The notes under the pieces are model-generated. The model was not told where the DNA came from, did no database searches, and saw only the letters and a program-made list of their open reading frames with translations. Below, in pieces: positions 13,305 through 15,394 of a stretch of 64,000 nt of DNA. The position numbers and the translations under genes were made by a program. Location: NCBI RefSeq assembly GCF_009914755.1, contig NC_060927.1; one strand, written 5' to 3'. Numbering within the stretch: position 1 is the first letter of the stretch; each line of letters opens with the position of its first letter. Source of the DNA: the human T2T-CHM13v2.0 reference genome, Homo sapiens.

Positions 13305-13460
13305 ACAAGCTCTGGAATCAGATAGGCTGGCTTCACCACTTACCTGTGTGAAGCCTTGGGCAAGTTATTTTAACCGCTCTGTGCCTCAGTTTCCTCATTT
13401 GTAAAATGAGGATAATAATCATGATTCTTTCATTCATGCTGAGTTGTTGCAAGGATTTTA
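13305..13460 (+). mobile_element. MIR, left part; resumes at 15364-15394 and 15693-15750
   Basis: MIR core CTGTGCCTCAGTTTCCTCATTTGTAAAATGAGGATAATAA, continuing as GCCTGGTACATAG beyond the retrocopy and the Alu. Confidence 0.8.
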
Positions 13461-13904
13461 TTTATTTATTTATTTTTTTCTGAGTTATATTATGTGCCAG
13501 GTTCAATATTATTGTTTTATATACCTATCTGAATTACATTTCCCCATGTCTTTGTGAGACATGTCTTTGTGAGACAATAACTATTGTTATTCCCATGGAG
13601 AAAGATGAAGAAAGTGATGCATAATGCGGCCAAGTAGCCAGGGTCATTCAGCTAGCCCCAGGAGTCAGATGGGACCCAGGTTTGGGGGACTGCTGCTTGT
13701 GCTACCTCCTGATTACTAATTAAGATTCTTCAGTATCTTGATACAGGGAAGAGGTGTCCTGGTTGGCAGGCAGGAGTATCCTGGTCAATGGAAAGTTATA
13801 TCCTTCCATTGTAAGTTAATGAATTTGGTAAGCAAGAGTCACCCCTTGAGCCCAAGCACCTCTTAAAAGCACCTCTGGTCACTGAAAAAGAGTTTCTCAA
13901 CTGC

Positions 13905-14420
13905 CATCTTTTATTCAACAAATACTTATTGAGCAGCTACTATGTGCCAGGCCACTGGAAATAAAGCAGAGAATGAGATGGACAAAGAGCTCACATTCTA
14001 GTCGGGGTGGACAAACATGTAACCAAATAAGCAAGACTAGTTTTCAATATGTGAGATGCTATGAAGACAATAAAATGGTATGATAAATAATGACTAAGGG
14101 AGTCAGTAAAAGGTCACTGTGAGCAGGTGGTACCTGAGCTGAGACCTGACATGATCAGCCAGTTATGAGACTCTAGAGAAGGGTGCATTAGGCACAAGGA
14201 CAGACAGTGCAAAGGTCGGAGTGAGATCTGCATGTCAGACAGACTACAGGGTGGTGGCCAGGATGGCTGGAGCAAGGTGAGAGGTAGAAAGTATGATGCA
14301 AGATGAGACTGAGAGCTGGGTATGGGCCTTGCAGGCCATAGAAGGGATTTCAGTTTTATTCTAAGCACAACTGGAAACCCGTGGAGGATTTTAAGCAAGA
14401 GAGTAATATGACCAAACTCT
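13905..14420 (-). mobile_element. L2 3' fragment carried inside the retrocopy
   Basis: TTATTCAACAAATACTTATTGAGCAGCTACTATGTGCCAGGC and downstream L2 motifs. Confidence 0.7.
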
Positions 14421-14764
14421 AAATCATTTTGATTCTATCAAGGTATACCCTTCCACGTAGAGCTTCCCTCTAACGTAATCTTGTAATCTTGAATTTCAAC
14501 AGATAGAAACATTTAAAGAGCCAGATAGTAAAACTGGTAATGCCACTCCATCTTGCTTAAGTTACAATCTCTCCTTTACAGGATTCCACAGAATTCTGGC
14601 AATCACCATTTCACTTACGTGATGACTGTAATTCATATTCTCGTGAAATGTTAGAATATAATGGTCCACATTTTATGAATGAACAAAACAAAATATGAAT
14701 ATCTTCTTTAAGGTCAATAATAGAACCAGGAAAGAAACTGAGAAATCTTTCTTTGTTACATGTG

Positions 14765-15070
14765 TTTTTTGTTTTTTGTTTTTTTTTTTTTTGAGATGGA
14801 GTCTTGCTCTGTCACCCAGGCTGGAGTGCGTGGCATGATCTCAGCTCACTGCAACCTCTGCCTCCCGGGTTCAAGTGATTCTTCTGCCCCAGCCTCCCGA
14901 GTAGCTGGGACTACAGGCGCATGCCACCACGCCTGGCTAATTTTTTGTATTTTTAGTAGAGACGCGGTTTCACCGTGTTAGCCACGATAGTCTTGATCTC
15001 CTGACCTCATGATTCTTGCCTCGCCCTCCCAAAGTGCTGGGATTACAGGCATGAGCCACCACGCTCGGCC
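14765..15070 (-). mobile_element. AluS inside the retrocopy
   Basis: Full Alu dimer with its own degenerate TSD (AAAAACACATTTAATA/AAAAACACATGTAACA on the minus strand). Confidence 0.92.
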
Positions 15071-15099
15071 TATTAAATGTGTTTTTAACACAGTCCACC

Positions 15100-15309
15100 T
15101 TAATTTCTCGTTCCATACAACTGCACGTTCTGAGCACATTTCTTGCATATTGTATTGGTTTTACTCTCCTGCTGGTACTCAGTCCTGCAGTAGGTGCACT
15201 TCACAACAGGGTGTGCAATCCGACATTCCTTGCACAGCTGCTGCCCCTGAGACAGCACCTGGAAGGGGAAACGCTGGTGGCACTTGGTGCAGGCGTAGAG
15301 CGCCGCCAT
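15100..15309 (-). pseudogene. FAM76A: Open 69-aa FAM76A-derived ORF within the retrocopy ([41 protein letters not shown]...YGTRN*)
   Basis: Near-identical to the FAM76A N-terminus as I recall it (FPFEAL here reads FPFQVL). Kozak GGACATGG, four CxxC motifs. Expression unknown. Confidence 0.88.
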
Positions 15310-15394
15310 GTCCGGCCCGGGCCGCGCTCACCGACCCGCCAGCCCGGCCCGCTGATTTATCTCGTTGCAAGGATTTTAAAGATAATGCACAGAG

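What the first reader, a model, noticed from the sequence alone, without database searches (positions are those of the whole stretch)
13446..15378. TSD-bounded 1.9-kb retrocopy fossilises a non-canonical, truncated FAM76A transcript
Seen: the FAM76A-like part is only ~250 bp, but a perfect 15-bp duplication (GTTGCAAGGATTTTA at 13446-13460 and 15364-15378), a T-rich tail next to the left copy, and a MIR that reads continuously once the interval is removed show that the whole 1.9 kb inserted as one unit. FAM76A homology stops after codon 67 (...YGT). The next bases are AGAAATTAA, which is neither the canonical continuation (PKPC...) nor a GT intron start. Recalled: codon 67 is the exon 3 boundary of FAM76A. 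Established: retrocopies are normally 5'-truncated, whereas this one keeps the 5' end and lacks the 3' CDS. Inference: the template was an mRNA with exons 1-3 spliced to a cryptic terminal exon (probably in FAM76A intron 3), or a chimeric/template-switched RNA.
Basis: partly seen in the sequence, partly recalled or inferred. Interest (0 to 1): 0.85.

Follow-up and report, generated by a model that had tools for sequence, protein, structure and literature searches.

The report
Retrocopy of a short FAM76A transcript
This is an ordinary processed pseudogene, but it is a full-length copy of an unusual short FAM76A messenger RNA, so it records that this alternative transcript was made in the germline millions of years ago.

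Summary
A perfect 15-bp target-site duplication (13446-13460 and 15364-15378) brackets a 1,903-nt insert on the minus strand. The insert ends in a 19-nt A-rich tail and interrupts an old MIR-like repeat.

The insert matches the FAM76A locus on chr1 of the same assembly:
- Exons 1, 2 and 3 are joined exactly at their GT/AG borders.
- They are followed by one uninterrupted 1,634-nt block (chr1:27575516-27577149) that carries a sense Alu.

In the parent gene this block follows a polypyrimidine-CAG acceptor. It reads AGA AAT TAA, giving a 69-codon frame.

It starts only 40 nt after the donor of canonical exon 4 (chr1:27575323-27575475), and exon 4 is skipped.

A chimera is not needed, because everything is collinear on one strand of one gene. 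An untemplated 5' G suggests a full-length, capped template.

Divergence from the parent is 52 substitutions in 1,856 positions (2.8%). I infer an insertion roughly 14-29 million years ago.

RefSeq's FAM76AP1 covers only 202 of about 1,900 bp. I could not check whether the isoform is annotated or still expressed.

This is a known kind of element, of modest interest.

The parts
13291..13460 (.). Left part of the old MIR-like repeat that was the insertion target. Its last 15 bp are the left copy of the target-site duplication. It continues at 15379-15394 and 15707-15750.
   Evidence: A profile of 29 MIR-like copies aligns to the reconstructed empty site at positions 42-271, which correspond to 13291-13460, 15379-15394 and 15707-15750.
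13446..13460 (.). Left copy of the target-site duplication, GTTGCAAGGATTTTA.
   Evidence: family D7.
13461..13479 (-). Remnant of the poly(A) tail, 19 nt, now A7(TAAA)3 on the minus strand. It is not encoded at the parent locus.
   Evidence: The parent continues tggctcc... after the cleavage region.
13480..14755 (-). Distal 1.28 kb of the alternative terminal exon (3' UTR), matching chr1:27575870-27577145. It contains a MIR-like fragment near 13904-13957.
   Evidence: 94% over query positions 16-1295; one continuous alignment.
14756..15070 (-). Alu in sense orientation that was already part of the parental exon and was copied with it. The limits are approximate.
   Evidence: The alignment runs straight through it into chr1:27575558-27575869. 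Other Alus in the 38.5 kb of chr1 examined match it at only 72-88%.
15071..15108 (-). First 38 nt of the terminal exon. Codons 68-69 (AGA AAT) are followed by the stop TAA at 15102-15100.
15109..15163 (-). FAM76A exon 3 (55 nt), 100% identical to chr1:27573895-27573949.
15164..15228 (-). FAM76A exon 2 (65 nt), 100% identical to chr1:27568765-27568829.
15229..15362 (-). FAM76A exon 1 (134 nt): 53 nt of 5' UTR, then ATG at 15309-15307. It has 5 substitutions against chr1:27567321-27567454, two of which change residues (E16Q, A17V).
15363..15363 (-). One untemplated G at the 5' end of the copy. The parent has C at that position.
   Evidence: Reading it as a copy of the cap is inference from recalled literature.
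15364..15378 (.). Right copy of the target-site duplication.

Best explanation
The interval 13461-15363 (minus strand) is one L1-mediated processed pseudogene. It is the real extent of FAM76AP1. Its template was a complete, capped and polyadenylated alternative mRNA of FAM76A on chr1. That mRNA consisted of exon 1 from its start, exon 2 and exon 3. The exon-3 donor was spliced past exon 4 to an acceptor 40 nt inside intron 4. The resulting 1,634-nt terminal exon is built from intronic sequence, including a sense Alu and a MIR fragment. It stops translation after two extra codons, giving 69 residues: the N-terminal four-CxxC part of FAM76. It ends at a weak intronic polyadenylation site. L1 endonuclease nicked a TTTT(A)/A site inside an old MIR on chr3, and the mRNA was reverse-transcribed from its tail to its cap. 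A 15-bp target-site duplication was left.

Shown: the structure, the junctions, the parent locus and the duplication. Inferred: the L1 machinery, the cap origin of the extra G, and the age of about 14-29 million years.
For: 1. Parent and collinearity. In the same assembly the copy matches chr1 as follows: exon 1 at 27567321-27567455 (96%), exon 2 at 27568763-27568829 (100%), exon 3 at 27573893-27573949 (100%), then 27575515-27577149 in one alignment. That alignment covers 1,666 columns at 93.6%, with 43 mismatches and 18 gap openings. The chr11 paralogue matches only at 79-82%. No third long copy appeared among the 40 scored of 81 candidates.
2. Splice signals in the parent. The junctions read AAG|gtgcgc, ttcag|GAATG, GAGAG|gtagag, aacag|TAAAA, GGAACG|gtaagt and ttttcctttcag|AGAAATTAAGG. 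The new acceptor has 18 of 20 pyrimidines at -23 to -4.
3. Exon 4 lies between exon 3 and the block and is absent from the copy. A tblastx comparison with the FAM76B locus places PKPCQY...DRKK at chr1:27575323-27575475, and the next conserved exon at 27585943.
4. Marks of retroposition. There is a tail absent from the parent, a 15-bp duplication, and a + strand target reading GGATTTTA/AAGATAA. The MIR-like repeat is restored when the insert is removed.
5. Full length. The copy starts one untemplated G before chr1:27567321.
6. Identity of the coding part. Pfam FAM76 matches at E 2e-31 over residues 4-67.
Against: - No transcript evidence for this isoform was available here. I had no gene table for chr1 and no EST or long-read data.
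- The cleavage region has only weak signal variants in the last 40 nt. AATATA starts 11 nt and TATAAA 38 nt before the last templated base, and there is no AATAAA or ATTAAA.
- The one supplement file held for PMC5928244 (an intronic-polyadenylation atlas) has 0 mentions of FAM76A.
- The only FAM76A entry in the stored supplement of PMC12548281, a file that was cut when stored, lies about 3.5 kb further downstream by offset.
- The exon 3/terminal exon joint is ambiguous by one G. Only the GT-AG reading is canonical.
- No outgroup genome could be inspected, so the empty site is reconstructed and not observed.
Confidence: 0.93

Rival explanations
1. The template retained exon 4 and read through into intron 4 (exon 4 extended to the intronic poly(A) site). 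The 193 bp made up of exon 4 and the next 40 nt were then lost from the retrocopy by a later genomic deletion.
For: Relative to the parent, the copy has other indels of 1-25 bp, including a 25-bp deletion. Read-through of a 5' splice site into an intronic poly(A) site is a common way to make such isoforms (established knowledge).
Against: The missing stretch begins exactly at the exon-3 donor and ends exactly after a polypyrimidine-CAG. A random deletion hitting both borders to the base is very unlikely. At 193 bp it would be about 8 times larger than the largest other indel.
Confidence: 0.03
2. It is a chimeric retrocopy. The L1 reverse transcriptase started on an unspliced, intronically polyadenylated FAM76A RNA and switched template to a spliced FAM76A mRNA.
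For: Template-switch chimeras are a known class (recalled, not tested).
Against: Both parts come from one gene, on one strand and in genomic order. The joint coincides with a canonical donor and a canonical acceptor. There is no extra sequence or microhomology beyond one G.
Confidence: 0.02
3. It is a DNA-level duplication, or a chance juxtaposition of unrelated pieces, and not one retroposed unit.
For: None found.
Against: Three introns are removed precisely. There is a tail not present in the parent and a perfect 15-bp duplication. The host repeat is restored when the whole interval is removed.
Confidence: 0.01

Closest known systems
[quoted passage not shown] I saw this paper only as an entry in the reference lists of PMC5470649 and PMC7290577. 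The paper itself is not held, so its content is recalled.
   Same: An L1-made copy of a spliced mRNA whose exon structure differs from the main isoform. The pseudogene therefore documents a transcript variant.
   Different: Here the variant combines an exon skip with an alternative last exon inside an intron. The copy carries 1.6 kb of sequence that the pseudogene annotation does not include.
Intronic polyadenylation / alternative-last-exon isoforms, including those that encode microproteins. I saw PMC5928244 and PMC12548281 as abstracts in the search listing, and searched their supplements for one gene name.
   Same: A terminal exon inside an intron truncates the coding region early. The predicted product has 69 residues.
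   Different: No expression evidence for this FAM76A site was found in those two supplements. The evidence here is a genomic fossil, not RNA data.
RefSeq pseudogene FAM76AP1, from the gene table supplied with the finding.
   Same: Same locus and strand. The annotated span 15109..15310 is the part homologous to the coding sequence of exons 1-3.
   Different: The inserted unit runs from 13461 to 15363 (1,903 nt). The annotation holds 202 bp of it.
Template-switch chimeric retrocopies, such as U6-L1 chimeras (recalled).
   Same: The retrocopy's sequence is not the canonical mRNA.
   Different: The parts are not from different RNAs or loci, so the defining feature is not met.

Membership tests
L1-mediated processed pseudogene (retrocopy) | Parental introns removed exactly at the exon borders | tested here: met
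   Three junctions (exons 1/2, 2/3, and 3/terminal exon) coincide with GT...AG borders on chr1.
L1-mediated processed pseudogene (retrocopy) | 3' poly(A) tail not encoded at the parent locus | tested here: met
   A 19-nt A-rich tail lies at 13461-13479. The parent continues tggctcc.
L1-mediated processed pseudogene (retrocopy) | Target-site duplication flanking the whole unit | tested here: met
   A perfect 15-bp repeat with only 2 matches in the window.
L1-mediated processed pseudogene (retrocopy) | Insertion at a T-rich/A endonuclease site (TTTT/A type) | tested here: met
   The + strand reads GGATTTTA/AAGATAA at the primed end. The consensus is recalled.
L1-mediated processed pseudogene (retrocopy) | Empty site in a species or haplotype that lacks the insertion | not testable with these tools
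   Only this one genome is held. The empty site was reconstructed and matches a MIR-like profile across the joint.
FAM76 protein family (Pfam PF16046) | Score above the curated cut-off | tested here: met
   110 bits against a cut-off of 28.5, residues 4-67 on profile positions 1-65 of 298. Only the N-terminal fifth of the family profile is present.
Alternative terminal exon / intronic polyadenylation isoform of FAM76A | Functional-looking 3' splice site at the exon start | tested here: met
   The start is preceded by ttcttgat...tttttttcctttcag|A, with 18 of 20 pyrimidines and a TTGAT branch-point-like motif 19 nt upstream.
Alternative terminal exon / intronic polyadenylation isoform of FAM76A | Polyadenylation signal 10-30 nt before the cleavage site | tested here: inconclusive
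   Only the weak variants AATATA (-11) and TATAAA (-38) are present, with no AATAAA or ATTAAA.
Alternative terminal exon / intronic polyadenylation isoform of FAM76A | RNA evidence (cDNA, long reads, 3'-end sequencing) for the junction and the end | not testable with these tools
   There were 0 mentions in the supplement of PMC5928244. The one FAM76A peak in the supplement of PMC12548281 is a different place. No short human isoform is named among the 23 proteins.
Chimeric (template-switch) retrocopy | Parts derived from different RNAs or loci | tested here: not met
   All parts are collinear on one strand of chr1:27567321-27577149.

The most novel reading that the evidence does not exclude
The fossil points to a FAM76A isoform that is still made today and may be missing from gene catalogues. 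It joins exons 1-3 to an intron-4 terminal exon that starts 40 nt after exon 4. The isoform would escape nonsense-mediated decay because its stop lies in the last exon. It would encode a 69-residue microprotein holding only the four-CxxC zinc-binding head of FAM76A. Its acceptor, stop codon and cleavage region are all intact in the present human gene. The retrocopy shows it was present in the germline at least about 14 million years ago.
Probability: 0.3. Interest if true: 0.35.

Novelty: new member of a known kind. Interest (0 to 1): 0.22.

Why it matters
The practical value is small but real.
- The annotated pseudogene FAM76AP1 should span about 1.9 kb, not 202 bp.
- About 1.6 kb of chr3 sequence that looks anonymous is a copy of FAM76A intron 4. 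This matters for read mapping: reads from that part of FAM76A intron 4 have a 94-97% identical second home on chr3.
- The copy gives a dated, RNA-independent record that the exon-3 donor of FAM76A can pair with a strong acceptor just beyond exon 4 and end at an intronic site.

If the isoform is still expressed, it predicts a 69-residue zinc-binding fragment of a poorly studied nuclear protein. It changes nothing about how retrocopies or splicing are understood.

Tried and rejected
- Plain BLAST of the reconstructed empty site against MIR-like copies gave nothing across the joint. With 8 loci there were 3 short hits. With 29 loci, 0 of 29 best hits crossed it. The host repeat is too decayed near the joint, and only the profile search resolved it.
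- Literature. 'FAM76AP1' appears in 0 papers. 'FAM76A' appears in 73 papers, of which 25 were listed. I read passages in three of them. They give only SpliceSeq event labels (exon-skip event 1344; alternate-terminator event 1340, 'exon 10') or a gene-level ranking, without coordinates. 'FAM76A' with 'polyadenylation' gave 5 papers, none relevant by title or abstract.
- A protein database search with the 69-residue frame gave 23 hits. These were the window's own protein, one 98-residue unnamed near-identical entry, and FAM76 fragments from other animals. No named human short isoform appeared. This says little, because the database may not hold human isoform records.
- The intronic-polyadenylation atlases gave no support for this site.
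- I considered and rejected a chimera or template switch, a later deletion of exon 4, and a DNA duplication (see the rival explanations).
Shemesh et al. 2006 is not held.

Full report
**What is in the window**

On the + strand the 15-mer GTTGCAAGGATTTTA occurs at 13446-13460 and 15364-15378 and nowhere else in the 64 kb. Shuffles expect 0.03 matches, and 1 of 100 shuffles gave two or more.

Right of the left copy lies TTTATTTATTTATTTTTTT (13461-13479). On the minus strand this is an A-rich tail.

The minus-strand frame from ATG 15309-15307 reads [10 protein letters not shown]...NVQLYGT, then R, N and a stop. Pfam FAM76 (PF16046) matches residues 4-67 at E 2e-31, covering profile positions 1-65 of 298.

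In the 6 kb around the site, the repeat finder lists 8 direct-repeat families:
- Four are Alu-to-Alu matches.
- Three are short repeats that flank inserted elements, this pair among them.
- One is a tandem duplication inside the insert.

**The target site**

The flanks look like an old MIR. That name is my recollection of the consensus, because no repeat library was available.

Plain BLAST of the reconstructed empty site against 29 MIR-like copies from the same genome (fetched) did not cross the joint. None of the 29 best hits did so.

A profile built from those 29 copies aligns without a break across the reconstructed site. It covers positions 42-271, with joints at 211 and 227, and scores 132.3 bits. 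On the filled site it stops at position 208, three bases before the insert, at 110.9 bits.

The reconstruction also removes a separate Alu at 15395-15694. That Alu has its own duplication, TAATGCACAGAG.

**Where the insert comes from**

I searched the window's own assembly. Window 13461-14755 has one long relative, chr1:27575870-27577149, at 94% over query positions 16-1295. The other 38 scored hits, besides the window's own locus, are 37-80-nt repeat matches; 40 of 81 candidates were scored.

The 293 nt at the 5' end of the copy split into four pieces on chr1:

| chr1 interval | Identity |
|---|---|
| 27567321-27567455 | 96% |
| 27568763-27568829 | 100% |
| 27573893-27573949 | 100% |
| 27575515-27575557 | 91% |

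Two weaker pieces lie on chr11 at 79-82% and belong to the paralogue.

A BLAST of the whole copy against 38.5 kb of chr1 shows that nt 255-1888 form one alignment to 27575515-27577149. It covers 1,666 columns at 93.6%, with 43 mismatches and 18 gap openings. The alignment runs straight through the Alu at window 14756-15070. That Alu was therefore already in the parental sequence and was copied with it, in sense orientation.

**The junctions**

On chr1 the borders read as follows:
- exon 1: ...TGCAAG|gtgcgc
- exon 2: ttcag|GAATG ... GAGAG|gtagag
- exon 3: aacag|TAAAA ... GGAACG|gtaagt
- the long block: tttcttgatttctttttttcctttcag|AGAAATTAAGG

The joint between exon 3 and the block is ambiguous by one G. 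Only the GT-AG reading is canonical. The new acceptor has 18 of 20 pyrimidines at -23 to -4.

The parent reads AGA AAT TAA after the joint, the same R-N-stop as the copy.

**Correction of the exon's position**

I located the other coding exons with a tblastx comparison between the FAM76A and FAM76B loci. After dropping rows with stop codons or Alu-like peptide words, seven conserved exon matches remain.

The fourth match...[21 protein letters not shown]...FDRKDDRKK, lies at chr1:27575323-27575475. It is 153 nt, has the acceptor ttttaag|CCC and the donor AAG|gtaaat. The next match starts at 27585943.

The terminal exon of the template (27575516-27577149) therefore begins 40 nt after the donor of exon 4. 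It lies in intron 4, and exon 4 is skipped. A 40-nt gap is too short to be an intron (established knowledge). Exon 4 and this exon can hardly be joined to each other.

**The 3' end**

The copy is templated up to ...ATAACTCAG, where the parent reads ...ATAACTGAG followed by TAAAtggctcc. After that the copy carries the tail.

The last 40 nt of the parent hold no AATAAA or ATTAAA. Only AATATA (starting 11 nt before the end) and TATAAA (38 nt before) are present. Two internal AATAAA were not used. The site looks weak, which fits a minor isoform.

**The 5' end**

The copy begins with a G that chr1 does not encode, since the parent has C there, followed by chr1:27567321 onward. I read this as the extra G that reverse transcription of a capped, full-length RNA can add. 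That reading rests on recalled literature and was not tested. Nothing is 5'-truncated, because the template was only about 1.9 kb.

**Mechanism**

The + strand target reads GGATTTTA/AAGATAA at the end that primed the tail. This is the T-rich/A type of site that L1 endonuclease prefers (recalled).

Four features are the standard signature of L1-mediated retroposition: spliced exons, a tail absent from the parent, a 15-bp duplication, and a parent on another chromosome.

**Age**

A global alignment of the copy with the spliced parent gives 52 substitutions in 1,856 aligned positions. That is 2.80%, or 2.86% after Jukes-Cantor correction. Eleven of the 52 are CpG transitions.

The alignment also shows nine indel events, not counting the 5' G and the tail:
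- a 25-bp deletion in the copy
- an 18-bp tandem duplication in the copy
- seven smaller indels of 1-6 bp

With recalled neutral rates of 0.5-1.0 x 10^-9 per site per year, this is about 14-29 million years. That places the insertion in the ape lineage, or at the earliest the catarrhine lineage. This is inference, because no other primate genome could be examined.

Exons 2 and 3 are unchanged. Exon 1 has 5 changes, two of which alter residues (E16Q, A17V). These are too few to speak of selection.

**Rivals**

- *Later deletion of exon 4 plus 40 nt.* It would have to hit a donor and an acceptor to the base, and it would be far larger than any other indel in the copy.
- *Template-switch chimera.* It is unnecessary, because the parts are collinear on one strand of one gene and the joint is a canonical splice.
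- *DNA duplication.* It is excluded by the precise loss of three introns and by the tail.

**What could not be settled**

I had no gene table for chr1 and no RNA data. I cannot say whether this terminal exon is already in GENCODE or RefSeq, or whether it is used today.

The literature searches gave the following:
- 'FAM76AP1' appears in 0 papers.
- Passages on FAM76A in three papers give only event labels or a ranking.
- The one held supplement file of an atlas of 4,927 intronic polyadenylation events does not mention FAM76A.
- A second study's supplement, a file that was cut when stored, lists one FAM76A intronic peak at hg19 chr1:28065762-28065922. By its offset from the listed gene start, this lies about 3.5 kb downstream of the site used here, next to an A-run. 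It is not evidence for this isoform.
- A protein search returned 23 entries, none of them a named human short isoform.

Supplements I could not see (PDFs, and files cut on storage) might still list the site.

**Verdict**

The preferred interpretation is correct apart from the exon's position, which is intron 4 with exon 4 skipped, not intron 3.

The kind of object is known: a processed pseudogene that preserves an alternative transcript. The closest precedent is Shemesh et al. 2006, which I saw only in the reference lists, so its content is recalled.

The useful outcomes are a corrected extent for FAM76AP1 (13461-15363, not 15109-15310) and a testable prediction of a short FAM76A isoform.

Noticed in passing
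window 12888-13197: An Alu on the minus strand flanked by a perfect 18-bp duplication, TATATACATTATTCTTAA, at 12870-12887 and 13198-13215 (family D5).
   Followed up: no
window 15395-15694: A second Alu (plus strand) sits in the same MIR-like repeat, beginning 16 bp after the retrocopy's right duplication. It has its own duplication, TAATGCACAGAG, at 15383-15394 and 15695-15706. It is an independent event.
   Followed up: partly
window 13545-13574 and about 14506: The retrocopy gained an 18-bp tandem duplication (two copies of CATGTCTTTGTGAGA plus 3 nt). It also lost 25 bp that the chr1 parent still has.
   Followed up: partly
window 13904-13957: Most short genome-wide hits map here (query positions 444-506). 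This is a fragment of an old interspersed repeat (MIR-like, by recollection) inside the terminal exon. The exon is therefore built largely from intronic repeats.
   Followed up: no
L017/L018, chr1:27575300-27575323: Canonical FAM76A exon 4 uses an AAG acceptor, usually a weaker choice than CAG. The alternative exon 193 nt downstream has a CAG with an equally pyrimidine-rich tract. This may explain why exon 4 can be bypassed.
   Followed up: no
L018, about chr1:27580600-27580800: A published 3'-end sequencing peak was placed here by offset only (supplement of PMC12548281). The sequence reads like the end of a coding region followed by GTATAAAAAAAAA and then an Alu. It may be another retrocopy's tail inside FAM76A intron 4, so the peak may reflect priming on the A-run. 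I did not test this.
   Followed up: no
protein P0002: An unnamed 98-residue database protein is 100% identical to the retrocopy's frame over 97% of it. Presumably it comes from the same human locus read from a longer upstream start. I did not examine it.
   Followed up: no
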